Shown piece by piece: positions 26,889 to 64,000 of a stretch of 64,000 nt of DNA. The position numbers and the translations under genes are program-made. Origin of the DNA: Escherichia phage kaaroe; the sequence record MN850574.1, one strand, 5' to 3'. Numbering within the stretch: position 1 is the first letter of the stretch; every line of letters starts with the position of its first letter. Under the pieces are notes generated by a model. That model searched no databases and was not told the origin of the DNA. It saw only the letters and a program-made list of their open reading frames with translations.

Positions 26889-28288
26889 TAGCGCACCCTT
26901 ATGATATAGTTTAATGCCAGACTCTTGACGCGAGTCTCGTTAGCCGTTCTTACGGATCTTCCTGAATCAAAGTTAACAGTAGAACCCCAATCATCACCAC
27001 CACCGTTTTTATAGTTCGTGCTCCATTGACCGCGCTGTGCAGTAAATGCGCCACCATACCAACCGCGCCAGCGGTCAGCTACAGGGAATTTACCAGTAAT
27101 TCTCTGCATTGCGTCTTCTTGATAAGAACCAAATCGACGACCTGGATCAAGGTTTCTTCCATGATCGCAACCACGAGCAACTAAACCGCGCATATCAGGA
27201 AGATTAAAATTGTCACCTGAACCACCAAAGGTATAACCAATCGCAGAAAATAATTGCGGATATTGATTTTTATTCAGTGAACGACCATTACAGATCAGAA
27301 AGTCACCTCGGTCGGCATTGAATCCAGAAAGGATAATACCACCAATTGGCATTGCGTGATTCGCTAATTCATTTTTAGTAACAAACTGGTTGCCGTCTGA
27401 GTTTGAACCTTTATAGACGTTTCCGCTTACCGTACCGCCAGTGCTAGGAAGAACCTTAGCATTTGCTGATAGTGCAGCGTTAGCCTCACTTCCTACGGTG
27501 TCTCGTAGTTTAACAATGCCGTATTGAGACGTTGTTGCCTTAGTGCTTGCAAACTTCTTAGCAGAAACAACTACAGTATCATCTGAACCAGCATTCATCT
27601 GTGACTGGCTGGCGATCTTAACAGTACCCGCCTGATTCTCATTGGCGCGAGCATTTGCAAATGCATAAGGGCTAATTGCAAAACCTTCTCGAATCTGGCC
27701 TTGTAAAACCTGCGCATTAGTTGCTAACTGAACTAAACCCTGTGCGCTTTCGGTTGCTGTGTTTTGATCTGGAATTAATCCCGGCACAATCTGTGCAATG
27801 GCAGTGTGCATCTTTTTCGGTGTTACTGCCATTGTGTCATCGCTGCCAATCTTTGCCGCCTCAAGAGAACATATCTTAATAGTCCCCTGAACGCTCTCTG
27901 ACGCCTTTTTAGTGGTGAAGTAATGGTTTAGTGTGTCTGGACCGATTGCCATGTTCTCGTTGCTCTCTTGCAGCGATTCTTCCATCGTGGCAAATCGGGT
28001 AATGCCTTTTACTTCTTTTGTAGCATCTGGACGTGACATTTTAACAGCTAGTGTTTTTGGAGTCACGATCTTATTGTCTACAGTGCCGTCGTTTACTTCT
28101 TCCTGAGTTGCGATTGCAGCGATCCCGGCTGTATCTTCCGTAGCGTCCGGTAATCCATTTACGGCAAAGCCATTAATAGCGGCTAAAGCCGCTTGTACGT
28201 TGGTAATGCTTTGAGGCCAATCATTTACAGGGTTAAACTTGACGTATTGAGCATCGTCTTTTACATGGTTAATAGTATTGTTTGCCAT
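26888..28288 (-). CDS. 12: short tail fiber gp12
   Basis: 466 aa, repeat-rich, C-terminal region with conserved Gly/His/Cys pattern; synteny wac-12-11. Confidence 0.8.
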   Translation of the reverse strand: MANNTINHVKDDAQYVKFNPVNDWPQSITNVQAALAAINGFAVNGLPDATEDTAGIAAIATQEEVNDGTVDNKIVTPKTLAVKMSRPDATKEVKGITRFATMEESLQESNENMAIGPDTLNHYFTTKKASESVQGTIKICSLEAAKIGSDDTMAVTPKKMHTAIAQIVPGLIPDQNTATESAQGLVQLATNAQVLQGQIREGFAISPYAFANARANENQAGTVKIASQSQMNAGSDDTVVVSAKKFASTKATTSQYGIVKLRDTVGSEANAALSANAKVLPSTGGTVSGNVYKGSNSDGNQFVTKNELANHAMPIGGIILSGFNADRGDFLICNGRSLNKNQYPQLFSAIGYTFGGSGDNFNLPDMRGLVARGCDHGRNLDPGRRFGSYQEDAMQRITGKFPVADRWRGWYGGAFTAQRGQWSTNYKNGGGDDWGSTVNFDSGRSVRTANETRVKSLALNYIIRVR

Positions 28289-53463: not shown

Positions 53464-54162
53464 ATGCATACAATGGTTAAAATGGTCTTCGGATCTCACT
53501 TATACGGCCTTGATACTGAAAATTCCGATAAAGATTATCGTGGTATCTTTGTTCCGACTGCGAAAGAAATTATCTTAGGATCGATGAAAGAACACTATGA
53601 TCAAAGCACTAGCGGTCAAGGGATCAAGAACACCAAAGACGATATTGACGTTAATATGTTCAGTCTAAAACGGTTTATCAATCTGGCATGTAAAGGCGAT
53701 ATCGGCGCTATTGACATGGTGCACGCTCCTAGTAACATGTTGATTGAATCCTCCAGAGAATGGGAATACATCCGAACACATCGCGATAAATTCTATCATG
53801 TTGGTATGTGGGGTTTGTCTGGTTATCTCAAGAAACAGGTAGCCAAATCTGAAAAGTATTTCAGTAACTGGAAAGATCTTTCTCATGCTCTGCGTGTTGG
53901 TTATCAGCTACTTGAAATCTATCAGACAGGTGATTTACAATTCCCGCTCGCGCGACGTTCTTCTATTTTAGCGTGTAAGTTAGGAGAAAGAACCTTTGAT
54001 AATGTGCGGGAAGAATTGAAAGATCTCTACGAGCGTGTTAAACACGCTCGTGAAGAGGCAAAGAAAAACGGTATGCCGGAAGAACCAGATGTTGACTTTT
54101 GGAAAGATCTATTAGAATATATTCATCTGACAGTTGTTCTGGAACACTATACCCGTGGTTAG
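53464..54162 (+). CDS. putative nucleotidyltransferase-fold protein (pol beta superfamily)
   Basis: N-terminal FGSHLYGLDTENSDKDYRGIF matches the G[GS]-x9-13-D-x-D signature. Confidence 0.5.
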   Translation: MHTMVKMVFGSHLYGLDTENSDKDYRGIFVPTAKEIILGSMKEHYDQSTSGQGIKNTKDDIDVNMFSLKRFINLACKGDIGAIDMVHAPSNMLIESSREWEYIRTHRDKFYHVGMWGLSGYLKKQVAKSEKYFSNWKDLSHALRVGYQLLEIYQTGDLQFPLARRSSILACKLGERTFDNVREELKDLYERVKHAREEAKKNGMPEEPDVDFWKDLLEYIHLTVVLEHYTRG

Positions 54163-54183
54163 TTAATATAGGAGATTAAGAAA

Positions 54184-54378
54184 ATGCAAGTTTATACCAA
54201 TAGTAATAAAGGACAAGATATTACGCCCGGAAAGATGTATGTTTTTACCCCGGCACGAGACGACGAACATCCACCGACTATCGGGTATATTGAAGATGAT
54301 GTGGGGTTTCGTATTACGATCCTTCTTGATGGTGGATGTTCTCATCTTCGCGGTGATAAATGGGAGTTAGTACCATGA
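54184..54378 (+). CDS. small protein, paralog family 1 (GCSHL motif)
   Basis: shares DGGCSHLRGDKW-type motif with the next two ORFs. Confidence 0.5.
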   Translation: MQVYTNSNKGQDITPGKMYVFTPARDDEHPPTIGYIEDDVGFRITILLDGGCSHLRGDKWELVP

Positions 54379-54620
54379 TGTATGTGATGACACCTTATAG
54401 TAACCGCAAGTATATTACACCAAATACACTGTATGAATATACACCACATGAAAGATTTGCGAATAGTGGTTATATCCGTGATGATAAGGGACACCAGATT
54501 TTTATTTGTCTTAAAAATTGTGCACACTTAGACGGTCGAACATGGACACTGATCGAAGAACCAAAACAACCTGAGAATAAAGGTCTTTGGAACGCAATTA
54601 AAAAAATCTTGAAAAAGTAG
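54375..54620 (+). CDS. small protein, paralog family 1
   Basis: ATGA overlap with previous stop; NCAHLDGRTW motif. Confidence 0.5.
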   Translation: MMYVMTPYSNRKYITPNTLYEYTPHERFANSGYIRDDKGHQIFICLKNCAHLDGRTWTLIEEPKQPENKGLWNAIKKILKK

Positions 54621-54649
54621 TTGACACAACAAAACGGGGGTAGTAATAT
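54621..54649 (+). promoter_or_regulatory. early promoter module TTGACA-17-TAATAT with spacer hairpin GGGGGTA...TACCCCC
   Basis: read directly. Confidence 0.6.
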
Positions 54650-54680
54650 ACCCCCATCGAAACAACAAAGGAGTATTAAA

Positions 54681-55016
54681 ATGAGTGTTAAAGAAGTGTT
54701 TGTTTATACCGACTATGACGGGTGCTCCTATCTCACTGCTGGAAAACTTTACCGTTGTGAGATTATTCATGGTACGCTAGGTCGAATTATGTGCGATCCT
54801 ATTACAAAATTGTGGAAAAATAATCCTAGTGAGCGAGAAACTCTTATTAACCTAGATCCAGACGGTTGTTCACATTTGGACTATAGAAAATGGCATATCG
54901 TGACACATGATGCTTATGGTATTCATCTTGCTACTAAAGAATTAACTATTGACAAGTTCAAGTTTAAAGAAATCCCGTTTGTATACTGGATTCGCAATTT
55001 GTTTAAGAAAGGATAA
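54681..55016 (+). CDS. small protein, paralog family 1
   Basis: DGCSHLDYRKW motif; start set at ATG after promoter. Confidence 0.5.
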   Translation: MSVKEVFVYTDYDGCSYLTAGKLYRCEIIHGTLGRIMCDPITKLWKNNPSERETLINLDPDGCSHLDYRKWHIVTHDAYGIHLATKELTIDKFKFKEIPFVYWIRNLFKKG

Positions 55017-55020
55017 TAAA

Positions 55021-55443
55021 ATGGAAACAATTAACGTACATGTTCGCCGTAGTAAGCTGCGTAGATTCTTCGAAACCGAAATGCGCAAAACCAATGCGAA
55101 GATCAAAGAAAAGTGCTTGAATGATGGTTATGGTGAGTATATTTTCATTCGCTTTAGTCCGCATATGATCGACCGTCTAACCGATCGTCATATCGATGAA
55201 CATAAGACAATGGAACTATTCAATAAGATAGAAACTCGTTTGCCGGAGATCTTCGACTTCCTGAAAATGGAAGACCGACCGAATCGATTAGAAATTACTG
55301 ACGGTAACATGTGGATCGGGATGACAGTAGATCTAATCGAAGAGGGTAAGCCATATCACGGTCTATGCTGCCGAATGATTATAGAGAATCCAAAACGACT
55401 GGCGGGTAAAATGTCGGCGGTTGTTTTGAAGGTAGACCAATAA
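55021..55443 (+). CDS. hypothetical protein
   Basis: 141 aa, start at internal ATG of track ORF. Confidence 0.5.
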   Translation: METINVHVRRSKLRRFFETEMRKTNAKIKEKCLNDGYGEYIFIRFSPHMIDRLTDRHIDEHKTMELFNKIETRLPEIFDFLKMEDRPNRLEITDGNMWIGMTVDLIEEGKPYHGLCCRMIIENPKRLAGKMSAVVLKVDQ

Positions 55444-55466
55444 TGGAAATTGGTTAAAAATAATGC

Positions 55467-55495
55467 TTGACTTTCTGGTGATAGGGCTATATTAT
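55467..55495 (+). promoter_or_regulatory. sigma70-type promoter TTGACT-17-TATTAT
   Basis: read directly upstream of the transglycosylase gene. Confidence 0.5.
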
Positions 55496-55529
55496 GGAAT
55501 CAGAAAGTTAAGCCAAACAGGAGAAATTA

Positions 55530-56120
55530 ATGTTAAAAGTTCTAAAAGCGATAGTATTGAGTCTGTCACTAGCCGTTGGTGCTACACACGCATCGACTAG
55601 CGCACCGATCAAAAAAGCGCCGATAGACAACTTTACACCACACCAACTAGATAATTTACATTTCGCCTATCAATACGGCGAGCAATTCGAGAAAAGCGGT
55701 AAGTTGAAAAAGTACCATCCGAATATTCGCTATAACGGAAAGGGTTTAGGTCACATCCTGGCGGGTATCGCATGGCAAGAATCAAGCGCGGGTGCAAACT
55801 TAGCACCAAAGAAAAATCATCATGCTTATGGATTATTTCAAAATTACCTTAAAACGGTGAAAGCGAAAAATGAAAAGCGCGGTGTTAAAATGAGTGATCG
55901 CCAGACTATCAACTTTATCATGAATCGCGAGGTTTCTGCATTCTACGCGATGGATGAGTTAGCATACTGGCTGGATATTCGAAACGGTAATATCAGACTC
56001 GCGCTAGCTTCTTACAATGCTGGATGGAACTATAAAGCCGGATTAGGTTATGCTGATGACGTACTAAAAAAGGCTAACCATCTAAAGAGTAAAGGCATTC
56101 TTAAGACTAAACGCTATTGA
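55530..56120 (+). CDS. secreted lytic transglycosylase (SLT domain) with signal peptide
   Basis: N-terminal signal peptide; E-S (AWQESS), GLFQ and SYNAG motifs of family-1 lytic transglycosylases. Confidence 0.75.
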   Translation: MLKVLKAIVLSLSLAVGATHASTSAPIKKAPIDNFTPHQLDNLHFAYQYGEQFEKSGKLKKYHPNIRYNGKGLGHILAGIAWQESSAGANLAPKKNHHAYGLFQNYLKTVKAKNEKRGVKMSDRQTINFIMNREVSAFYAMDELAYWLDIRNGNIRLALASYNAGWNYKAGLGYADDVLKKANHLKSKGILKTKRY

Positions 56121-56127
56121 GGAATAT

Positions 56128-56487
56128 ATGAAAAAGTTGACAATAATTGCTATGATTGCTATGATGTTCTCTGCTGGTGCGCTTGCTAGTAATGAGCGCC
56201 CTTATCCAAAGTTCGAATACAAAGGATTTGAGATCAACAAAAAGATCATTAAAACTTTCTGTGATGATGATAACATGTGTAGTGATTTTATCGCGCTCGA
56301 ACTTGATGAAGCATACAAACAAGGTCGAGACGAAAAACGAAAAAATCGAGCGTGGGATCTGAGTATTGCCAGCTTTGCTAAAACAAAACGTAACCTGTGT
56401 GATACTGCCCCTGATAAGCAATTATGCTTTGCTTATCGCGACACACTGTTAAGCCGTTTTATGGCTGGGTTGTCTTCCCGTGACTAA
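56128..56487 (+). CDS. secreted/periplasmic Cys-containing protein
   Basis: signal peptide MKKLTIIAMIAMMFSAGALA. Confidence 0.5.
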   Translation: MKKLTIIAMIAMMFSAGALASNERPYPKFEYKGFEINKKIIKTFCDDDNMCSDFIALELDEAYKQGRDEKRKNRAWDLSIASFAKTKRNLCDTAPDKQLCFAYRDTLLSRFMAGLSSRD

Positions 56488-56502
56488 TGTGAGGTTTATA
56501 TT

Positions 56503-56958
56503 ATGATTATTGATACTGTAAAGGGCGATCTCATCGCCCTGTTTAAACAAGGAAACGGTCATTTAATTCATGGTTGTAATTGTTTTCATACTATGGGCGC
56601 TGGTATTGCTGCGAAGATCGCGAAAGAGTTCCCGCAAGCGTTAGAGATTGACAAGCAAACTTCTCGCGGTAAGGTCGAAAAGCTGGGTGGGTTTAGTGTC
56701 TGGACGCATCAAGTTAATGGTTATAACTGGTGCGGGGTGAATCTCTATACCCAATTCCGACCGGGTCCAAATGCTGAATATGGTGCTATCCTGAAAGGAT
56801 TTGAGTCTCTCAATGATGTTTTTGAGGGTGCTATACAGCCTTTCTATATTCCTAAAATCGGTTGCGGTATCGGTGGCCTTGAGTGGGAATGTGTAGAAGA
56901 GATCATTAATATTGCTACTCCAGACATTAACATTGTGGTGGTTGAATATGACAAATAA
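56503..56958 (+). CDS. macrodomain protein, TARG1/DarG-like (ADP-ribose binding/hydrolase)
   Basis: motif LIHGCNCFHTMGAGIAAKIAKEFP matches the TARG1/OARD1-type signature (H-C-x-x-x-C-x-M-G-x-G-I-A...F-P); 151 aa. Confidence 0.7.
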   Translation: MIIDTVKGDLIALFKQGNGHLIHGCNCFHTMGAGIAAKIAKEFPQALEIDKQTSRGKVEKLGGFSVWTHQVNGYNWCGVNLYTQFRPGPNAEYGAILKGFESLNDVFEGAIQPFYIPKIGCGIGGLEWECVEEIINIATPDINIVVVEYDK

Positions 56959-57142
56959 AAATGATCTATATTCCGGTGATTGGGTGAAACGTCAGTCTGT
57001 AGAAAACGTAACTTGTTTTCGTTGTTTCATTGAATACAATATAAAAACCGCTCCTGTTAGTGTTCCAAAGACAGACGGGTATTATATTAAAGAACCGCAT
57101 TGCCCTAAATGTAAATGTCGATTATATTGGAGTCATCTATGA
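56948..57142 (+). CDS. small Zn-ribbon-like protein
   Basis: CxxC...CxxC pairs; start moved to internal ATG. Confidence 0.45.
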   Translation: MTNKNDLYSGDWVKRQSVENVTCFRCFIEYNIKTAPVSVPKTDGYYIKEPHCPKCKCRLYWSHL

Positions 57143-57357
57143 AGAAGCCTAATACCGCTCACATGAAGGAAAACTGCCGATGTGGTAGATGTGGTTGGCC
57201 TATTATATTCACTTGCTGTAACGACGATATGCAGCGTTTACCGTGGGGAATGTGGGATTGGTGGATGTATTGCAGCAATAAAGGTTGCGACCATCATGAA
57301 GGCGAAGGAGTCTTTCAGGAAACGCCTGATTGGGTGGAGGTGATAGAAAATGCTTGA
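57139..57357 (+). CDS. small Cys-rich protein
   Basis: CRCGRCG...CC...C..GC; ATGA overlap. Confidence 0.45.
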   Translation: MKKPNTAHMKENCRCGRCGWPIIFTCCNDDMQRLPWGMWDWWMYCSNKGCDHHEGEGVFQETPDWVEVIENA

Positions 57358-57643
57358 GACTATCATTAATCTTGTTGTGTGGACTTTTATTTTCGTTATT
57401 GTTATTATGGCGGGTATAGAGATTGTAAAACAATATCTATTGCAATCTCGAAATAAACATGTTGTGATTGATATGGACTCGCAAGGCAATAAGTTGATCC
57501 GGTTAGAAGATGGTCGGGAATATTGGGTTGGATATCCTAAAACGCTAAAAGGGTTTATCCTTGCCATGAGCATTAACATCTTTTTTATTGGTATCTGGAC
57601 TTATATCGGTTTAGGTCTTGCTGGATTTTTGGAGATTAATTAA
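57350..57643 (+). CDS. small membrane protein
   Basis: 97 aa, two TM helices. Confidence 0.45.
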   Translation: MLETIINLVVWTFIFVIVIMAGIEIVKQYLLQSRNKHVVIDMDSQGNKLIRLEDGREYWVGYPKTLKGFILAMSINIFFIGIWTYIGLGLAGFLEIN

Positions 57644-58239
57644 TGGCGCAATTATATTTCTACTATGCATCTATGAACGCTGGCAAATCAACTTCTCTGT
57701 TACAAAGTGCTTATAACTATACCGAACGTGATATGCGAGTATTAATTCTTAAGCCAGCGATTGATAATCGAGATTCAGAAAGTGAAGTTGTTTCCCGAAT
57801 TGGTCTAAGTGCTCCAGCGATCACCTTCACTGAATCGGATGATCTTTTCGACTTGGTTTATCGTGAATCGTTAGGTAAGCGTAGACCAGATCGCTGGCGT
57901 CCTGATGCTGTATTTGTAGATGAAGCCCAATTTATGACTAAAGAGCATGTTTTAGGCTTGTGTGCGCTTGTTGATGATGCAAATATCCCTGTACTGTGCT
58001 ATGGCCTTCGCACTGACTTTCAGGGCAATCTATTTGAAGGATCTGCGGCATTGATGGCATTTGCTGATAAACTGGTCGAAATGAAGGGTATTTGTCATTG
58101 TGGCAAGAAAGCAACAATGGTCCTTCGTGTAGATAAAGAGGGTAATGTTATTCGCGATGGTGCTCAAATCGAAGTTGGTGCAGAGGATAAATATGTTTCT
58201 GTGTGCCGTAAACATTTTATTGATGGCACTACCAACTAA
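57643..58239 (+). CDS. tk: thymidine kinase
   Basis: YFYYASMNAGKST P-loop, FVDEAQF, CHCGKKAT Zn-site motifs. Confidence 0.95.
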   Translation: MAQLYFYYASMNAGKSTSLLQSAYNYTERDMRVLILKPAIDNRDSESEVVSRIGLSAPAITFTESDDLFDLVYRESLGKRRPDRWRPDAVFVDEAQFMTKEHVLGLCALVDDANIPVLCYGLRTDFQGNLFEGSAALMAFADKLVEMKGICHCGKKATMVLRVDKEGNVIRDGAQIEVGAEDKYVSVCRKHFIDGTTN

Positions 58240-58266
58240 GAGTTAATCATAAATAAAGCCCCAGAT

Positions 58267-58274
58267 TATAAATA
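58267..58274 (+). promoter_or_regulatory. T4-type late promoter motif TATAAATA (plus strand)
   Basis: exact motif about 34 nt upstream of ATG 58308. Confidence 0.45.
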
Positions 58275-58307
58275 TAACTGAATATTTTAAATCTGGGGGA
58301 ATGACTT

Positions 58308-58610
58308 ATGTCATTTATTCGTAAAACTCTAACAGCGGCAATATGCTTGACTGCGGTCGGAAGTGTCAGTGCTGATCAATATGATCCAACTGGTGACTTT
58401 ACTGATTATTTCGACGGTGCAATGATAGTATATGTAAACAAAATATCTCCTTCCATTGAAACCAGCCAGAAATTTCATGCCCATATTATGAAGATGTATG
58501 CTCGTAGTAAATGTATGGATTCTAAGCAGTGTTTTATTATGGGGGAATATGCCGCACAACAGTTTGTTATGTTGCATAATATGGAGAATAGAGAACATGA
58601 AATTCATTGA
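58308..58610 (+). CDS. secreted protein with signal peptide
   Basis: MSFIRKTLTAAICLTAVGSVSA leader. Confidence 0.5.
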   Translation: MSFIRKTLTAAICLTAVGSVSADQYDPTGDFTDYFDGAMIVYVNKISPSIETSQKFHAHIMKMYARSKCMDSKQCFIMGEYAAQQFVMLHNMENREHEIH

Positions 58611-58995
58611 TTTTCTAAAGACGTCCGAAGAGGGGAAAGCTAATAAAGTTGACCGCTTTATCGGTGAATGTCTGATGAGTGTTACTTATATGCATTCTGC
58701 GCATTTTGGGGTAACTGGTCCTAGATCTTATGCAAAACATAAGGCTCTAGAAGAGTTCTATCTTGAAATGCAAGAATTGGTTGATGATTTCACTGAAACC
58801 AATATTGGGATCACTGGTCGTTATCAGCCAACGTTGGTCGTCCGCAAGGAGATTAGCGAAATTGCCTATTTGCAAGAGTTAACGCAAATGGCTAGTGAGA
58901 TTTATAATGATGTTGATAGCTCGTTACAGAGCGTTTTAGACGATATCAAAGCTCTATGTTTTAAAACAATTTATAAACTCACTCGACTGTCTTAA
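58597..58995 (+). CDS. hypothetical protein
   Basis: 133 aa; start at internal ATG overlapping previous stop. Confidence 0.45.
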   Translation: MKFIDFLKTSEEGKANKVDRFIGECLMSVTYMHSAHFGVTGPRSYAKHKALEEFYLEMQELVDDFTETNIGITGRYQPTLVVRKEISEIAYLQELTQMASEIYNDVDSSLQSVLDDIKALCFKTIYKLTRLS

Positions 58996-59228
58996 TGTTA
59001 GTCACCGTGGGATGCATACCAGAAGTAAAAGAATACTAGCATTAACACAACTATTTGGCTTCCTCATACTTTCGCGTGTTCAATTACTGCCGAATCGGAA
59101 GACCCGTCTAAGACGAGGAAGGGTTATCATTGGAAAGGGATGGTGAATTGGTTACTATGTTTAACTAGTTTAGCAAAGGTCGATTCAAACACTACTATAC
59201 AAATGGACGTGAATAAAATATAATCAAA

Positions 59229-59256
59229 AGCCATCCGAAAGGGTGGCTTTTTCGTT
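59229..59256 (+). terminator. rho-independent terminator
   Basis: hairpin AGCCATCC-GAAA-GGGTGGCT plus T-run. Confidence 0.7.
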
Positions 59257-59264
59257 TTTAGGTG

Positions 59265-59293
59265 TTGACAACCGGAATAGGGTATATCATAAT
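59265..59293 (+). promoter_or_regulatory. early promoter module TTGACA-17-CATAAT
   Basis: read directly. Confidence 0.7.
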
Positions 59294-59322
59294 GCACACA
59301 TCGACAACAAAGGAGAATCAAA

Positions 59323-59478
59323 ATGATTAATCCAGTAGCCGCAGCACTTGCTTCCGAAGAAACTTTGAAGTATATGGTAGAACATGCAGCAAAGAAAGGA
59401 GAAATTGTTGCTGCCGATGAGATCGTAGAAACCATGCTCCGCGATCCGAAGGGTAACACCGCAAAGTTTTTTCGGTGA
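59323..59478 (+). CDS. small hypothetical protein (51 aa)
   Basis: RBS AAAGGAGAATCAAA, below track cut-off. Confidence 0.4.
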   Translation: MINPVAAALASEETLKYMVEHAAKKGEIVAADEIVETMLRDPKGNTAKFFR

Positions 59479-59522
59479 TCATCTTAAACTGGCTTACAAA
59501 ACCATTATGGAGACCGTGAAGA

Positions 59523-59861
59523 ATGCAAAATGATGTGATTGAAATTATTATGAATCAATACCGAAACCGGATTTGGTCTGGACGTATCAAAGAAGAAAAG
59601 GCAAAACGGATCATCGAAAAATATGCTGAAAAGACTAAGCAAGCGCCAACGGCTAACAGAGTTATGATTCTTAAATGTCTGGTGCTTTCCGGTGACGATA
59701 TGCCTATTGATGCAGAGACAGCCACCGATTTTCATAAGACCTATCGCCAGTGTGATGTAATTTTTACTTCTGGCTTCGGTAGTTATGACTCTATTATGTG
59801 GAATTTAATGCACCTTGACTCAACGATCTGGGATGTGCTTTCAGAGGAGGGTTACAAATGA
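59523..59861 (+). CDS. hypothetical protein
   Basis: 112 aa. Confidence 0.5.
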   Translation: MQNDVIEIIMNQYRNRIWSGRIKEEKAKRIIEKYAEKTKQAPTANRVMILKCLVLSGDDMPIDAETATDFHKTYRQCDVIFTSGFGSYDSIMWNLMHLDSTIWDVLSEEGYK

Positions 59862-60208
59862 ACATTGACATTCAACGACTAATTGATCACCTTCATGCGG
59901 GAATACCTTATCATGGCGACGTTACCCGCGATATTCTTGATGTGTTGGAATATACCCAGCAAGTGATCAACGAAAAGCAAGCATTAGAATCACGGATCGA
60001 CGAGGCAATAGGAAATATTGCAACCGAAGATGAATTAGATAATCACTTTGGACCTGTTCTTGATGCTCTTATGGCTGCGCGTGATACCAAACTGAAACAG
60101 GATAAACAAGAATTTATCCTTGATGGTTTAGCTCGTTATCACAATGCAATTGATATTATGAATAACCAGCATGATTATGCTATTAGTATTTTGCGAGGTC
60201 TGGCATGA
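59858..60208 (+). CDS. hypothetical protein
   Basis: 116 aa, ATGA overlap. Confidence 0.5.
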   Translation: MNIDIQRLIDHLHAGIPYHGDVTRDILDVLEYTQQVINEKQALESRIDEAIGNIATEDELDNHFGPVLDALMAARDTKLKQDKQEFILDGLARYHNAIDIMNNQHDYAISILRGLA

Positions 60209-60489
60209 AAGACACAAACGAATTTAACGGTATTAAGGTAAGCCCGAATTTTATTGTTCCATCACTGGTGACTAAGCTGAATGGTCATATGGTCGCTTTG
60301 TCTTCCACACCGCCAGAATCAGGAAAGTTTATCACTATCGTAGTTTATGCGGGGCAAATTTTCTCTCATGATTGCTGCATGAAAAATGGTCAGTTGATGG
60401 TTGCAAATTATGACTATGGAGACCTTGAATGGGAAGTTTTAGATCTGGCTAAAAGTGCTGAAATTCTGGGCTATATTCGATTAGTTTAA
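60205..60489 (+). CDS. hypothetical protein
   Basis: 94 aa, ATGA overlap. Confidence 0.5.
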   Translation: MKDTNEFNGIKVSPNFIVPSLVTKLNGHMVALSSTPPESGKFITIVVYAGQIFSHDCCMKNGQLMVANYDYGDLEWEVLDLAKSAEILGYIRLV

Positions 60490-60506
60490 AAATTTCTTAG
60501 AAAGTG

Positions 60507-60535
60507 TTGACAGCGATCCGGTGTTATTGCATAAT
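60507..60535 (+). promoter_or_regulatory. early promoter module TTGACA-17-CATAAT
   Basis: followed by CATCGAAACGAGATAC and RBS. Confidence 0.7.
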
Positions 60536-60576
60536 ACACCCATCGAAACGAGATACACTTTCTAGGAGAATCAAAA

Positions 60577-60798
60577 ATGGCAACTGTTAAAATTATCAAA
60601 TCTTCCGCTGGTTTCGGTTTCATGCGTGGCGCTAAGTACCCGATGATTATTGAAAACGTTGCCATCGAAGATGGTATGGCTAAAGTAACCAGCCGTCAAT
60701 TGTTCGAAGCGGGTGTTAAAACTGCTGAATCATGGGCGCTTCGCTATCCTAACAAAACATGGTCTTTCTTCCTGGATGGTGAAGCAGAGGTCATCTAA
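60577..60798 (+). CDS. small protein, paralog family 2 (xKIIxxxGFxFMxGxKxPxIIE)
   Basis: shares N-terminal motif with ORFs at 62924 and 63140. Confidence 0.5.
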   Translation: MATVKIIKSSAGFGFMRGAKYPMIIENVAIEDGMAKVTSRQLFEAGVKTAESWALRYPNKTWSFFLDGEAEVI

Positions 60799-60816
60799 GT
60801 AATATTATCAATCAAT

Positions 60817-60839
60817 GCCCCTTAATTGGGGCTTTTCTT
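60817..60839 (+). terminator. rho-independent terminator
   Basis: hairpin GCCCC-TTAATT-GGGGC plus TTTTCTT. Confidence 0.6.
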
Positions 60840-60852
60840 GTGAGGAAATTTT

Positions 60853-61638
60853 ATGGCAATATCTTCTGGATGGGTAGGATCATCTGCTGTGTCCGAGACT
60901 GGTCAACGGTGGATGAGCGCCGCAATGCAAGCTGTACGCTTAGGTCGTCCGGCGTATATGTCGGCAATGGTCGGACGCTCTAAAGAGATTCATTATAGCA
61001 TTGGTGCTAGTAACTCTTACAATAAAGACACTCTTATTAACTGGATGAAAGCACAAGGATCTACTCCGGTAGTAATTACTATCACGGGTAATATTGTTTC
61101 CCAATCTACTGGCGTTCCTTGTCTTGATTTCCCTAGCTCACTGACAAACGAATATGTAACACTCATTATTAACTCTGGTGTTCATGTATTAGGTCGTGGA
61201 GGAAATGGCGGAAGTAACTCTGCTGGTGGAGCAGGAGGAAATGCAATAAATAACGGAATTGGAACTCGTTTAAGAATAAACAATAATGGTATTATTGGTG
61301 GTGGCGGTGGTGGCGGTGCTGGTGCTAGATACAATCCTTTCCCTCAAATGGATATGAAATTTGGCGGCGGTGGAGGCCGTCCATTTGGTGCTGCGGGTGC
61401 GGCAGGAGGCGGCGCAGCGGCAGCATCTGCTGGTACAATTTCTGCCCCAGGTAAAGGCACTGTTTCTGGGGTTCATTATGGAGGAGATGGTGGAGATTTG
61501 GGAGCTGCTGGCAAATCTTCATATATTAAAGGTGGTACTGGTGGAACTGTTCACTCGGGTGGTGCTGCGGGTAAAGCTGTTACTGGTAATGCCCCTCGCT
61601 GGGATAAAGTAGGCACGATCTACGGTGCTCGCGTGTAA
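60853..61638 (+). CDS. glycine-rich protein, gp38-adhesin-like (polyglycine motifs)
   Basis: 261 aa; conserved-looking N-terminal domain followed by runs GRGGNGGSNSAGGAGGNA, GGGGGGGAGA, GGGGGRPFGAAGAAGGG. Confidence 0.6.
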   Translation: MAISSGWVGSSAVSETGQRWMSAAMQAVRLGRPAYMSAMVGRSKEIHYSIGASNSYNKDTLINWMKAQGSTPVVITITGNIVSQSTGVPCLDFPSSLTNEYVTLIINSGVHVLGRGGNGGSNSAGGAGGNAINNGIGTRLRINNNGIIGGGGGGGAGARYNPFPQMDMKFGGGGGRPFGAAGAAGGGAAAASAGTISAPGKGTVSGVHYGGDGGDLGAAGKSSYIKGGTGGTVHSGGAAGKAVTGNAPRWDKVGTIYGARV

Positions 61639-61644
61639 TTTTAT

Positions 61645-61671
61645 GGGCTATCCTTCGGGGTAGCCTTTTTT
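61645..61671 (+). terminator. rho-independent terminator
   Basis: hairpin GGGCTATCC-TTCG-GGGTAGCC plus T-run. Confidence 0.7.
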
Positions 61672-61682
61672 GTTTTTGGGTG

Positions 61683-61710
61683 TTGACAAAGATAATCACA
61701 ATGCTATAAT
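61683..61710 (+). promoter_or_regulatory. early promoter TTGACA-16-TATAAT
   Basis: read directly. Confidence 0.7.
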
Positions 61711-61739
61711 GCACGCATACCAACTAAGGAGAATCAAAG

Positions 61740-62030
61740 ATGACCACTGAACAATTAATCAAGCATATCCGAAACATCATCTGGGATCTGTCTGGTGATA
61801 AAGAGGAACAAGCTGAACGCATTTTGGCTAAACTCTATAAGCGCCGTGACCGTGGATTATCAGCAAAGAAAGTAGAAACTTTCAAAGAGTTATCTTTCAT
61901 CGAAGCTAAAAAGGATGGATTAATTTATCAGTTGACAGATGGTTATTGGTGCTATGATAATACTCGCTATGACACCGCGACCGATGCATTAAAAGCATGT
62001 AATGACCATCTTCGCAAAACTACAATTTGA
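61740..62030 (+). CDS. hypothetical protein
   Basis: 96 aa. Confidence 0.5.
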   Translation: MTTEQLIKHIRNIIWDLSGDKEEQAERILAKLYKRRDRGLSAKKVETFKELSFIEAKKDGLIYQLTDGYWCYDNTRYDTATDALKACNDHLRKTTI

Positions 62031-62040
62031 GGATTATATT

Positions 62041-62238
62041 ATGAAGGTTAAAACATTGGCTGATATGGATGAGATCGAGACTCAAGTACATGCGGCGCTA
62101 GTCGGTTATGAGTTCGGGCGATTCCTTAATAAGTTCCATGATTATAAATGCTTAAATTGTGGTGCTCATAACGTAATTGGTGCTTGCTGTATTAATCCTG
62201 TTATAGTACCATATAAAAGAAATGAAACAGAAGAGTGA
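62041..62238 (+). CDS. small Cys-containing protein
   Basis: start at internal ATG with GAGGAT RBS. Confidence 0.45.
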   Translation: MKVKTLADMDEIETQVHAALVGYEFGRFLNKFHDYKCLNCGAHNVIGACCINPVIVPYKRNETEE

Positions 62239-62248
62239 GGAATATAGA

Positions 62249-62683
62249 ATGAAAAAGTTGATGGCGACCTTTCATGATATGCGAGATCTACCAGGTTTAG
62301 CACATGTCGATTTTCCTGTTACTATGGAAGTGTCGGAATATGACGGTTATCATGATATTCTGTTTATTAAAAACACTGAGTTTATCCGCTTAGGCGCTAA
62401 ACCTGCTGTACTATACCCAGAAGGAAACCGGACAGCGGTCAGAAAAACAAATTCTGTTAAATTGGCATTTAGTTCAGATGTTGGCTTGGAACCCGCTTTC
62501 GGATATACTCCGGTCGAGATCACAAAATCGAATACTTCTTTCGTGAAAGTTGGAGAGAAAACGCATATTTCAACTATGCCGAACGGTGCACAATATCTAT
62601 GGTCCGATTTCTGCCAGCGTTATGAGCGTTTATCATGGGCTACCCGCTTATGGTGTGTTGAGTATAAGGAGATCACAAAATGA
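62249..62683 (+). CDS. hypothetical protein
   Basis: 144 aa, start at internal ATG with GAGGAA RBS. Confidence 0.5.
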   Translation: MKKLMATFHDMRDLPGLAHVDFPVTMEVSEYDGYHDILFIKNTEFIRLGAKPAVLYPEGNRTAVRKTNSVKLAFSSDVGLEPAFGYTPVEITKSNTSFVKVGEKTHISTMPNGAQYLWSDFCQRYERLSWATRLWCVEYKEITK

Positions 62684-62934
62684 TCACCGGATATATTCCA
62701 TATTCAACGACAAAACACATTATCGGATTCGAAGACATAGAAAAGTCTTGCTTTCCTCTCAAGGTTGAAGTAGACTTTATTACAGCGAACGGATGGGCTT
62801 ACGTCACTGTTTCAGAAATGAAGCGCGTAGGGTGGGAAAACTGCATACACCTACCGCATCTTATCCTAGATGTTCGCGCTGGTGAAATTGATATTGCTGG
62901 AAAGATCTATGGAGACAATGTAAATGAAAATTGA
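62680..62934 (+). CDS. hypothetical protein
   Basis: 84 aa, ATGA overlap. Confidence 0.45.
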   Translation: MITGYIPYSTTKHIIGFEDIEKSCFPLKVEVDFITANGWAYVTVSEMKRVGWENCIHLPHLILDVRAGEIDIAGKIYGDNVNEN

Positions 62935-63121
62935 AATTATTGATGACGGTGGATTTTCTTTCATGAATGGCGTTAAACTTCCTATCATCGTGGAAGGTCG
63001 TCGTTATGGGCTTGATTATCTTGTAGAAACGCAGGAACTACAAAAAGCTGGCGTACCAATTAAAGGTTATTTTCCTGAATATGAATGGTGTTTTCGTGCA
63101 AATGAAGCCTGGGCGGTATAA
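62924..63121 (+). CDS. small protein, paralog family 2
   Basis: MKIEIIDDGGFSFMNGVKLPIIVEGR. Confidence 0.5.
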   Translation: MKIEIIDDGGFSFMNGVKLPIIVEGRRYGLDYLVETQELQKAGVPIKGYFPEYEWCFRANEAWAV

Positions 63122-63139
63122 CTAATTGAGGATTATATT

Positions 63140-63397
63140 ATGAAGATTGAAATTATTGACCGTGCTGGGTATACTTTCATGGAAAAAGTTAAACTTCCTA
63201 TCATTGTTGAAGGTCGCCCATTATGTCAAGGATTCATGATAAAGACCAGAGAACTACGAAATGCGGGTGTTCCTGTTGAATCATGTTTCAGTGATGATTA
63301 TGAATGGTGTTTCAGTGGTTTACGTGCACATAAAGTAAAAGAAGCACGAAAAGCATCATGGTTTGCTAGCTTTAATAACTGGTTGAGGAAACTGTGA
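63140..63397 (+). CDS. small protein, paralog family 2
   Basis: MKIEIIDRAGYTFMEKVKLPIIVEGR, about half identical to previous ORF. Confidence 0.5.
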   Translation: MKIEIIDRAGYTFMEKVKLPIIVEGRPLCQGFMIKTRELRNAGVPVESCFSDDYEWCFSGLRAHKVKEARKASWFASFNNWLRKL

Positions 63398-63735
63398 TGT
63401 GTGAAATGAAAAAGTATATGATTCTAAGTGATTCAGGATACACCTTCTTACAAGGTATTGATAGTGACTCGCGTCCTATTGTATATGGAAAAGAACATCC
63501 GACCATTCCTGAGATCATTCTTGTTACGACAACATCACTTCGTAGAGTGTCAGAAAGTCCATACCTACAAAACGTAAAGCAGGACCGAGAATGGGCTTTC
63601 GAGTTAGGTAAAGACCTTGTTGAATGGGTAAACTGTGAAGACAAGAACCAACGAAATCATGAAGGGAAGATTTCACGAATTGTACTGAGAGGAAAACTTG
63701 ATGAAATCAAAAACAGGATTCTACAATCAATGTAA
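63397..63735 (+). CDS. hypothetical protein
   Basis: 112 aa, ATG after GAGGAA. Confidence 0.45.
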   Translation: MCEMKKYMILSDSGYTFLQGIDSDSRPIVYGKEHPTIPEIILVTTTSLRRVSESPYLQNVKQDREWAFELGKDLVEWVNCEDKNQRNHEGKISRIVLRGKLDEIKNRILQSM

Positions 63736-63955
63736 CAGGGTATTCATTGTCCTGCTGGATTCGGAAAACTATCCAGAACTCTCTAAAACGCGTTTTCCGT
63801 GCGTTGTTGAAGCACGCAAGGCATATGCACCAGATAAACAGTTTATAGTGTTAGCGAGCGAAATAGAGCGGTTAGGGGCGATTCCTAAACATGATGAATA
63901 TGTGTTTTGTAAGGCGTTCTCTGTGCCTCATTTTGGTGTAGAGTTAATTCACTAA
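63698..63955 (+). CDS. hypothetical protein
   Basis: 85 aa. Confidence 0.4.
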   Translation: MMKSKTGFYNQCNRVFIVLLDSENYPELSKTRFPCVVEARKAYAPDKQFIVLASEIERLGAIPKHDEYVFCKAFSVPHFGVELIH

Positions 63956-63972
63956 AATCATAAAAAAAGTTG

Positions 63973-64000
63973 TTGACAGGGGATCGGTGATCCCCTATAC
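63973..64000 (+). promoter_or_regulatory. early promoter module (TTGACA plus spacer hairpin GGGGATC-GGT-GATCCCC), truncated by window end
   Basis: read directly. Confidence 0.5.

What the first reader, a model, noticed from the sequence alone, without database searches (positions are those of the whole stretch)
60853..61638. Orphan glycine-rich gp38-adhesin-like gene in the early hyperplastic region, far from tail-fibre genes
Seen in sequence: a 261-aa protein with an ordered N-terminal region followed by polyglycine-rich blocks separated by short variable stretches, in its own terminator-flanked unit between small early genes. Established knowledge: T2-type gp38 receptor-binding adhesins (about 260 aa) have this architecture and normally sit next to gene 37. 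The resemblance is from memory, not alignment. Inference: a displaced or second receptor-binding module, or a polyglycine-II scaffold put to another use.
Basis: partly seen in the sequence, partly recalled or inferred. Interest (0 to 1): 0.55.

Follow-up and report, generated by a model that had tools for sequence, protein, structure and literature searches.

The report
Krischvirus gp38 tail-fibre adhesin, displaced locus
This gene is the phage's ordinary, single-copy long-tail-fibre tip adhesin (gp38); in RB49-like phages (Krischvirus) it normally lies far from the other tail-fibre genes, as already published, so the finding is correct but not new.

Summary
The 261-aa ORF at 60853..61638 (+) exists and is a true T2/S16-type gp38 adhesin: Pfam GP38 1e-70, Gp38_N 4e-18, full-length match to the S16 gp38 structure 6f45_D at 9e-49. 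The window comes from an RB49-like phage (Krischvirus). In this genus g38 always sits here, among small early-type ORFs about 55 kb from g37. This is annotated in RB49 and described in Trojet 2011 and a 2026 preprint. It is the only gp38 in these genomes, not a second module. RB49 host-range mutations map to this gene.

What the tools add:
- **Mosaic gene.** The N-terminal gp37-attachment part and both flanks are 97-100% Krischvirus. A ~400-bp receptor-binding cassette (~61203-61569) is 92-98% identical to gp38 of Tequatrovirus phages (Shfl2, RB18, UFV13), where the gene sits in the usual g37-adjacent slot. Crossovers lie in conserved glycine motifs.
- **Likely receptor.** The protein is 261/261 identical to gp38 of phage Delraymugoa, whose RB-TnSeq screen selected tsx, so Tsx is the predicted receptor.
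- **Expression unresolved.** No late promoter precedes the gene. It follows an early-type promoter, a 73-aa ORF and a weak stem-loop.

Verdict: already known; low interest.

The parts
60853..61638 (+). g38: long-tail-fibre tip adhesin gp38, 261 aa (the end coordinate includes the stop codon)
   Evidence: ORF. Pfam GP38 1.1e-70 and Gp38_N 3.9e-18. PHROG 2056 7.8e-100. PDB 6f45_D 8.6e-49. 261/261 identical to Delraymugoa WWD11788.1.
60853..60972 (+). N-terminal gp37-attachment domain (aa 1-40, Pfam Gp38_N). Krischvirus-type sequence.
   Evidence: PF21721 aa 1-40, E = 3.9e-18. aa 1-50 are 100% identical to GEC-3S and Phi1 but 61.5% to Tequatrovirus UFV13.
60985..61635 (+). GP38 domain (aa 45-261): linker/core plus the glycine-rich receptor-binding domain
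   Evidence: PF05268 matched over 1-218 of 218 profile positions. Glycine motifs align with S16 gp38.
61203..61569 (+). Receptor-binding cassette of Tequatrovirus (Shfl2/RB18/UFV13) type, exchanged by recombination. Outer limits of the crossovers are 61128-61203 (around GRGGNGG) and 61569-61597 (GGAAGKAVTGNAP).
   Evidence: Sliding identity is 90-98% to UFV13 against 40-78% to RB49, Phi1 and GEC-3S. Informative sites run 68 Krischvirus-type, ~60 Tequatrovirus-type, 13 Krischvirus-type. The cassette occurs in 9 Krischvirus and ~29 Tequatrovirus records.
60842..60845 (+). Shine-Dalgarno GAGG, 7 nt before the ATG
   Evidence: Read from the sequence. The intergenic region is 98-100% conserved in GEC-3S, Phi1 and RB49.
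60817..60832 (+). Weak stem-loop plus T-run between the 73-aa ORF and g38, with no promoter after it
   Evidence: -11 kcal/mol, z = -1.9. Equivalent to the published RB49 terminator 46164-46179, '5 bp'.
61645..61666 (+). Strong intrinsic terminator ending the g38 unit; first half of a repeated terminator-promoter (PeSL-type) cassette
   Evidence: -14.7 kcal/mol, z = -3.65. RB49 terminator 45339-45360, '9 bp'. The cassette is repeated at 59226-59325.
61683..61710 (+). Consensus sigma-70 early promoter (TTGACA-16-TATAAT with TG) for the next ORF (61740..62030)
   Evidence: 12 of 12 matches. Corresponds to RB49 Pe:45336.
60507..60535 (+). Early-type promoter (TTGACA-17-CATAAT); the nearest promoter upstream of g38
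   Evidence: Corresponds to RB49 Pe:46502 and to the GEC-3S promoter annotation.
60577..60798 (+). 73-aa ORF (RB49 ORF080 homologue) that lies between that promoter and g38. Function unknown.
   Evidence: No Pfam family. Paralogous to 62924..63121 and 63140..63397.
58267..58274 (+). Nearest T4-type late-promoter motif (TATAAATA) in the g38 direction. It lies in front of the rI homologue, 2.6 kb upstream of g38.
   Evidence: Equals RB49 Pl:48756 in Nolan et al. 2006.

Best explanation
This is the phage's single gp38, the receptor-recognising adhesin at the tip of each long tail fibre, in the position where all RB49-like phages (genus Krischvirus) keep it.

How it most likely works:
- After the distal fibre protein gp37 trimerises and cuts off its C-terminal chaperone domain, one gp38 monomer docks on the fibre tip through its N-terminal domain. 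This step is inferred from the S16 structure and from the gp37 of the closest relative.
- The glycine-rich motifs form the rigid polyglycine-II core. The variable loops between them contact an outer-membrane receptor.
- The receptor is predicted to be the nucleoside channel Tsx, because an identical protein in phage Delraymugoa gave tsx as the top hit in a genome-wide screen.
- The receptor-binding cassette of this allele (about 61203-61569) was exchanged by homologous recombination within conserved glycine motifs with a Tequatrovirus-type g38. This happened even though the two genes lie at different genomic positions.
- Transcription most likely starts at the early-type promoter at 60507 and reads through the weak stem-loop at 60817, and/or comes from long late transcripts starting at 58267. 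This last step is inference only.
For: Shown here:
- Family membership over the full length.
- The window is Krischvirus DNA: 99% to FL38 and 97% to GEC-3S over 12.6 kb.
- The same locus and neighbours occur in GEC-3S, Phi1, RB49, Delraymugoa and Brandy.
- One gp38 per genome.
- The long-tail-fibre block gp34-gp37 lies elsewhere, followed by a 79-aa ORF and the holin.
- gp37 of MIZ6, whose gp38 is 100% identical, has a Peptidase_S74 chaperone domain at aa 810-869.
- Mosaic structure with breakpoints in conserved motifs.
- The cassette is shared with ~29 Tequatrovirus records at 92-95% DNA identity, in the g37-adjacent slot.
- 261/261 identity to Delraymugoa gp38.

From papers:
- RB49 g38 is 'displaced to a distant locus' (PMC3157838).
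- RB49 host-range mutants E230K/Y231S map to gp38, and gp38 is the fibre adhesin (PMC9569957).
- Krischvirus gp38 lies ~55 kb from gp37. RB49 uses OmpA. CPL00151 (Delraymugoa) gave tsx (fitness 15.9) plus heptose LPS genes (preprint 10.64898/2026.04.02.716166).
- Published promoter and terminator predictions for RB49 match the window's layout (PMC1524935 supplements).
Against: - No T4-type late promoter (TATAAATA, or with A or another base at the first position) lies within 2.6 kb upstream on the coding strand. Two terminator-like stem-loops (59226, 60817) lie between the nearest one and the gene. How a virion protein is supplied at late times is therefore not explained.
- The partner gp37 is outside the window and was examined only in relatives.
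- MIZ6 gp37 gave no sequence-level hit to the S16 gp37 tip fragment of 6f45, so the docking geometry is inferred.
- The Tsx assignment rests on one preprint and on sequence identity, and was not tested for this phage. Other Krischvirus gp38 alleles with different cassettes also map to Tsx (JK32, GoldenSnicker), so the link between cassette and receptor is not one-to-one.
- The 3D fold was not modelled here.
Confidence: 0.93

Rival explanations
1. A second or accessory receptor-binding module, or a polyglycine-II scaffold recruited for a non-virion, early-expressed function. One example would be a protein that acts inside the infected cell, with the true fibre adhesin encoded elsewhere.
For: The gene lies among early-type ORFs, in the early orientation, behind an early-type promoter and without its own late promoter.
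Against: - There is one gp38-family place per genome.
- The slot after g37 holds only a 79-aa ORF with no Pfam family.
- The N-terminal fibre-attachment domain is intact and identical in GEC-3S and Phi1 (96% in RB49).
- RB49 host-range mutations map to this gene.
- RB-TnSeq receptor assignments track the Krischvirus gp38 alleles.
Confidence: 0.03
2. A T4-type gp38, meaning a tail-fibre assembly chaperone that is not part of the virion. Several database records label homologues this way ('distal long tail fiber assembly catalyst', 'tail assembly protein').
For: Annotation strings in related records.
Against: - The protein has the full glycine-rich receptor-binding domain of the adhesin class and aligns end to end with the S16 adhesin in 6f45.
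- The partner gp37 carries its own intramolecular chaperone domain.
- Trojet 2011 separates the T4 chaperone from the ~260-aa adhesin class.
- These labels are inherited from T4 nomenclature.
Confidence: 0.02
3. A decaying or silent relic: a gene copy moved into a hyperplastic region that has lost its promoter and is no longer expressed.
For: No promoter lies between the upstream stem-loop and the start codon, and there is no late promoter nearby.
Against: - The ORF is intact in all relatives examined. The ribosome-binding site and intergenic region are 98-100% conserved.
- The recombinant cassette is in frame and keeps every glycine motif.
- It is the only gp38 in phages whose gp37 needs one.
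- Published mutants with changed host range map to this gene.
Confidence: 0.01

Closest known systems
gp38 of Escherichia phage Delraymugoa (CPL00151; OR896825, WWD11788.1), and the near-identical alleles of W115, FL38, FL37 and MIZ2/3/6
   Same: The protein is 261/261 identical. The locus, neighbours and flanking DNA are the same (98.8-99.1% over 1.7 kb).
   Different: Nothing detectable in the gene. The window is simply another isolate of this Krischvirus lineage.
RB49 gp38 (NP_891650, RB49p079), the type case of the 'displaced g38'
   Same: Same locus, same flanking ORFs, promoters and terminators. The N-terminal 109 aa are 96-100% identical.
   Different: The receptor-binding part (aa 110-245) is only 59% identical. 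RB49 is assigned OmpA (and some O antigens), while the window's allele is predicted to use Tsx.
Tequatrovirus gp38 of the Shfl2/RB18/UFV13/Kha5h type
   Same: The receptor-binding cassette is 92-95% identical in DNA and 97.8% in protein (aa 110-245).
   Different: In those phages the gene sits in the canonical order g37-g38-holin. The N-terminal 50 aa are only 61.5% identical. The flanking DNA is unrelated, since similarity stops at the CDS ends (window 60866-61642). The two gp37 proteins are dissimilar outside the chaperone domain.
Salmonella phage S16 gp38 (PDB 6f45 chain D), the structural prototype
   Same: Full-length alignment (aa 1-259 against 1-247, E = 8.6e-49) with the glycine-rich motifs in register.
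   Different: The variable loops differ and S16 targets a different host. In S16 the gene is adjacent to g37 (my own knowledge, not tested here).
T2/T6/K3 gp38 adhesins (Tetart 1998; Trojet 2011 model of glycine-rich motifs and hypervariable segments)
   Same: Same domain plan. The same evolutionary mechanism applies: recombination within conserved glycine motifs swaps specificity segments.
   Different: Here the exchange partners lie at non-homologous genomic positions and in different genera.

Membership tests
T2/S16-type gp38 tail-fibre adhesin (Pfam PF05268 + PF21721) | N-terminal domain that attaches to the gp37 fibre tip | tested here: met
   PF21721 Gp38_N, aa 1-40 over 40 of 40 profile positions, E = 3.9e-18. 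Aligns with the N-terminus of 6f45_D.
T2/S16-type gp38 tail-fibre adhesin (Pfam PF05268 + PF21721) | C-terminal receptor-binding domain built from conserved glycine-rich motifs | tested here: met
   PF05268 over 218 of 218 positions, E = 1.1e-70. The motifs are invariant across four gp38s and in register with S16 gp38.
T2/S16-type gp38 tail-fibre adhesin (Pfam PF05268 + PF21721) | Between-phage variation is concentrated in the segments between glycine motifs (hypervariable segments) | tested here: met
   aa 110-245 are 59-70% identical among Krischvirus alleles, against 96-100% for aa 1-109 and 246-261. Differences fall between the invariant G-runs.
T2/S16-type gp38 tail-fibre adhesin (Pfam PF05268 + PF21721) | Polyglycine-II sandwich fold | not tested
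   Inferred from the end-to-end sequence alignment to the solved S16 gp38. No model was built, because the homology was already unambiguous.
T2/S16-type gp38 tail-fibre adhesin (Pfam PF05268 + PF21721) | Partner gp37 ends in a self-cleaving intramolecular chaperone rather than a T4-type receptor-binding needle | tested here: met
   Tested in a relative only. MIZ6 (gp38 100% identical) has a 918-aa gp37 with Peptidase_S74 at aa 810-869, E = 2.1e-11. gp37 is not in the window.
T2/S16-type gp38 tail-fibre adhesin (Pfam PF05268 + PF21721) | Gene immediately downstream of g37 (usual synteny; not a defining property of the protein family) | tested here: not met
   In GEC-3S, g37 is at 150995-153763 (+) and g38 at 45726-46505 (-). 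This is a documented genus-wide exception.
T2/S16-type gp38 tail-fibre adhesin (Pfam PF05268 + PF21721) | Present at the fibre tip and determines host range or receptor | not testable with these tools
   Literature only: RB49 gp38 host-range mutants, and RB-TnSeq of Delraymugoa, which carries the identical protein, selecting tsx.
T4-type gp38 (fibre assembly chaperone, not in the virion) | Short protein (~180 aa) without the glycine-rich receptor-binding domain. The adhesin function lies in the gp37 C-terminus. | tested here: not met
   The window protein has the full GP38 adhesin domain. Only its first 86 aa match the 181-position PHROG 1121. The relative's gp37 has a chaperone domain, not a T4 needle.
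PeSL-bounded mobile module (promoter-early stem-loop cassettes; Arbiol 2010) | A stem-loop followed by a conserved early promoter on both sides of the module | tested here: inconclusive
   The 3' side has a typical repeated cassette of stem-loop, TTGACA promoter and AGGAGAATCAAA RBS (61645-61745, repeated at 59226-59325). The 5' side has only a lone weak stem-loop without a promoter (60817-60832). The recent exchange has its breakpoints inside the gene, not at these cassettes.

The most novel reading that the evidence does not exclude
In Krischvirus the fibre-tip adhesin may be expressed out of step with the rest of the tail-fibre genes. It would be transcribed mainly from an early sigma-70-type promoter by read-through of a weak attenuating stem-loop, instead of from a gp55-dependent late promoter. 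A stand-alone position in a hyperplastic region would also let the receptor-binding cassette be exchanged with other genera without co-transfer of gp37. The first part is untested. The second is compatible with the Tequatrovirus-type cassette seen here, but that exchange used motifs inside the gene.
Probability: 0.3. Interest if true: 0.3.

Novelty: already known. Interest (0 to 1): 0.1.

Why it matters
There is little new biology here. The displaced g38 of RB49-like phages has been annotated and discussed since the RB49 genome work, and an identical protein is already in GenBank.

The practical value is in annotation and prediction:
- The gene should be called the long-tail-fibre adhesin, not 'hypothetical' or 'assembly catalyst'.
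- Its allele predicts Tsx as the primary receptor, which matters for choosing phages for cocktails.
- The inter-genus cassette shows that adhesin specificity moves between Krischvirus and Tequatrovirus even though the gene positions differ.
- The one open point is how and when the gene is transcribed.

Tried and rejected
- **Late promoter before g38.** I searched for TATAAATA exactly and with one mismatch on the coding strand between 58200 and 61700. Only 58267 (and CATAAATA at 58248), in front of rI, are candidates. TATGAATA at 60157 and AATAAATA at 61245 (inside g38) were rejected. The published RB49 predictions agree.
- **Second gp38 copy.** Rejected: one place per genome.
- **Long-tail-fibre genes inside the window.** None for gp35, gp36, gp37, the 79-aa ORF or the holin. 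There is only a weak gp34-repeat-like hit at 27.4-28.2 kb on the minus strand.
- **Sequence match of the relative's gp37 to the S16 gp37 tip in 6f45.** None. Only gp34-type trimerisation-domain hits were found.
- **Exchange at the PeSL cassettes.** Not supported: similarity to Tequatrovirus stops at the CDS ends, and the recent breakpoints are inside the gene.
- **Literature.** The Desplats 2002 RB49 paper is not held. No Krischvirus transcriptome paper was found. No paper links RB18 gp38 to a receptor.
- **tRNA scan of the window.** No tRNA genes.
- **Deliberately not run.** Structure prediction, fold search and the large protein-database searches, because the homology to a solved structure was already decisive.

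Full report
**1.

- The ORF at 60853..61638 on the + strand starts with ATG, encodes 261 aa and is preceded by GAGG seven bases upstream.
- The protein has an ordered N-terminal ~110 residues. These are followed by runs of glycine (GRGGNGG, GGAGG, GGGGGGG, FGGGGGRPFG, GGDGGD, GGTGG, GGAAGK) separated by short non-glycine stretches.
- Stem-loop plus T-run elements flank the gene at 60817-60832 (5-bp stem, -11 kcal/mol, z = -1.9) and 61645-61666 (9-bp stem, -14.7 kcal/mol, z = -3.65).
- The surrounding + strand genes are small ORFs with sigma-70-type promoters.

**2. The gp38 resemblance is real homology**

- Pfam GP38 (PF05268) matches aa 45-261 over the whole 218-position profile at E = 1.1e-70. 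Gp38_N (PF21721) matches aa 1-40 at E = 3.9e-18.
- PHROG 2056 ('tail fiber protein; host specificity') matches at 7.8e-100.
- Against solved structures, the protein aligns from residue 1 to 259 with chain D of 6f45, the gp38 of Salmonella phage S16, at E = 8.6e-49. The glycine motifs are in register.
- No structure was modelled, because this was already decisive.

**3. The source is an RB49-like phage, and this is where the genus keeps g38**

- The 1.7 kb around the gene is 99.1% identical to Escherichia phage FL38 and 98-99% to Delraymugoa, W115 and MIZ2/3/6. It is about 90% identical to GEC-3S, classified as Krischvirus. GEC-3S aligns with window 51399-64000 at 97%.
- GEC-3S, Phi1, RB49, Delraymugoa and Brandy all have the gene between the same small ORFs.
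- The RB49 record annotates it as 'g38; similar to T2 and RB69 gp38 adhesin'.
- In GEC-3S, the fibre genes gp34-gp37 occupy 144.3-153.8 kb on the other strand and are followed by a 79-aa ORF and the holin. g38 lies at 45.7-46.5 kb. That is 107 kb on the linear map, or about 56 kb the other way round.
- The window itself has no gp35, gp36 or gp37 homologue.
- A tblastn search of 50,697 phage records gave 800 places in 795 records, with one place in each Krischvirus record. This is therefore the only gp38, not a second one.

**4. This is already in the literature**

- Trojet et al. [quoted passage not shown] They cite Desplats 2002 (PMC3157838).
- Golomidova et al. 2022 treat RB49 gp38 as the fibre adhesin. 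They obtained host-range mutants with E230K and Y231S in it, and describe Brandy49 gp38 as the most divergent allele (PMC9569957).
- The supplements of Nolan et al. 2006 predict this order for RB49: early promoter Pe:46502, ORF080c, a 5-bp terminator, gene 38, a 9-bp terminator, early promoter Pe:45336. This is the same layout as the window (PMC1524935).

**5. What the tools add: the allele is a mosaic**

Protein identity of the window gp38 by segment:

| Segment | GEC-3S, Phi1, RB49 (Krischvirus) | UFV13 (Tequatrovirus) |
|---|---|---|
| aa 1-50 | 96-100% | 61.5% |
| aa 110-245 | 59-70% | 97.8% |
| aa 246-261 | 100% | 87.5% |

- At the DNA level, window 60400-61150 and 61590-62100 are 97-100% Krischvirus. 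Window ~61180-61585 is 90-98% identical to UFV13 and only 40-78% identical to the Krischvirus relatives.
- I scored sites where the three Krischvirus sequences agree and UFV13 differs. These give 68 consecutive Krischvirus-type sites, a short mixed zone (61128-61203), about 60 Tequatrovirus-type sites up to 61569, then 13 Krischvirus-type sites from 61597.
- The crossovers coincide with GRGGNGG and GGAAGKAVTGNAP. This is the motif-mediated swapping described by Tetart 1998 and Trojet 2011.
- The cassette is found in 9 Krischvirus records at the displaced locus. It is also in about 29 Tequatrovirus records (Shfl2, RB18, UFV13, Kha5h, TadeuszReichstein and others) at 92-95%.
- In UFV13 the gene order is g37-g38-holin.
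- Similarity to UFV13 stops at the ends of the coding sequence (window 60866-61642). The two gp37 proteins are unrelated outside the chaperone domain.
- The lineage-specific N-terminus fits its role of docking on the phage's own gp37.

**6. Mechanism and receptor**

- gp37 of MIZ6, whose gp38 is 100% identical to the window's, has a C-terminal Peptidase_S74 intramolecular chaperone domain (aa 810-869, E = 2.1e-11). This is the arrangement of gp38-capped fibres.
- The docking of one gp38 on the processed gp37 trimer is inferred from S16 (summarises this), not shown here. MIZ6 gp37 gave no sequence hit to the S16 tip fragment.
- The window's gp38 is 261/261 identical to Delraymugoa WWD11788.1.
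- In the preprint's RB-TnSeq table, CPL00151 (Delraymugoa, 164,032 bp) selects tsx (fitness 15.9) plus rfaE, rfaD and rfaC. It is assigned Tsx and Kdo. RB49 is assigned OmpA.
- I therefore predict Tsx as the primary receptor. One caveat: other Krischvirus alleles (JK32, GoldenSnicker) also map to Tsx.

**7. Expression is the one unresolved point**

- On the coding strand, the nearest TATAAATA is at 58267, in front of the rI homologue and 2.6 kb upstream. A one-mismatch search found nothing usable closer. Nolan et al. list the equivalent Pl:48756 as the nearest late promoter in RB49.
- Between it and g38 lie a strong terminator (59226-59251, -16.6 kcal/mol) and the weak stem-loop at 60817.
- The nearest promoter of any kind is the early-type TTGACA-17-CATAAT at 60507-60535, which drives the 73-aa ORF.
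- The likeliest route is read-through of the weak stem-loop from this promoter, possibly supplemented by long late transcripts. This is inference.
- The 3' junction is one of the repeated terminator-promoter-RBS cassettes of this region (61645-61745, repeated at 59226-59325). These correspond to the PeSL elements of Arbiol 2010. The 5' junction has no promoter, and the recent exchange did not use these cassettes.

**8. Verdict**

- 'Second module', 'scaffold put to another use' and 'orphan' are not supported.
- The feature is already known, and an identical protein is in GenBank. Interest is low.
- The inter-genus cassette and the Tsx prediction are useful annotation details. The promoter question is a modest open point.

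Noticed in passing
window 60577-60798, 62924-63121, 63140-63397 (+): A family of paralogous small ORFs (73, 65 and 85 aa; shared pattern KI.I...G..FM...K.P.I.E ... AGV ... W.F) surrounds g38. Pairwise BLASTP gives E = 1e-23 (62924 vs 63140) and 5e-7 (60577 vs 63140). The 73-aa member has no Pfam family. Function unknown.
   Followed up: partly
window 59226-59325 and 61645-61745 (+): Repeated composite cassettes: GC-rich stem-loop, CTTTTT(C/T)GTTTTT(A/G)GGTGTTGACAA promoter, ATAATGCAC -10 region, then CAAC(A/T)AAGGAGAATCAAA ribosome-binding site. They match the published PeSL idea. The junction upstream of g38 (60817-60832) has only the stem-loop.
   Followed up: partly
window 58248-58274 (+), upstream of ORF 58308-58610: Two late-promoter-like motifs 19 nt apart (start to start; CATAAATA at 58248, TATAAATA at 58267) precede the rI (lysis inhibition) homologue. 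This is one of only two + strand TATAAATA sites in the window. It corresponds to RB49 Pl:48756.
   Followed up: partly
window 27407-28171 (-): Weak similarity (25-33% identity, E down to 9e-15) between repeats of the proximal long-tail-fibre protein gp34 of MIZ6 and a gene in the structural block of the window. This is presumably another fibrous protein, such as the short tail fibre. Not identified.
   Followed up: no
GenBank OR896826.1 ('Escherichia phage Aragogtheria') vs OR896825.1 (Delraymugoa): Both records are 164,032 bp and gave identical match coordinates and identity. The 2026 preprint lists Aragogtheria as a 110,979-bp Epseptimavirus and notes 'Different from NCBI accession OR896826'. 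OR896826 is probably a duplicate of the Delraymugoa sequence filed under the wrong name.
   Followed up: partly
Related phage records: The same gp38 adhesin is annotated inconsistently: 'hypothetical protein', 'tail assembly protein', 'distal long tail fiber assembly catalyst', 'tail protein and peptidase'. The 'assembly catalyst' label is carried over from T4, whose gp38 has a different function.
   Followed up: no
tblastn hits H51 (OK283618.1 Listeria phage LPML1), H78 (NC_018843.1 Salmonella phage SSU5), H77 (HG803185.1 Escherichia phage P13357): The N-terminal attachment part of gp38 (aa 1-43 up to 1-109) also matches records outside Straboviridae-sized genomes: a 103-kb SSU5-type phage (70% over aa 1-43) and an 87-kb record labelled as a Listeria phage (49% over aa 1-109, in two pieces). 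The module may be shared more widely, or the Listeria record may be mislabelled or chimeric.
   Followed up: no
Locus L005 14032-14271 (MIZ6) and L002 25807-26046 (GEC-3S): The slot after g37, where g38 normally sits, holds a conserved 79-aa ORF with no Pfam family. Trojet 2011 mention it as of unknown function. Whether it takes part in fibre assembly is unknown.
   Followed up: no
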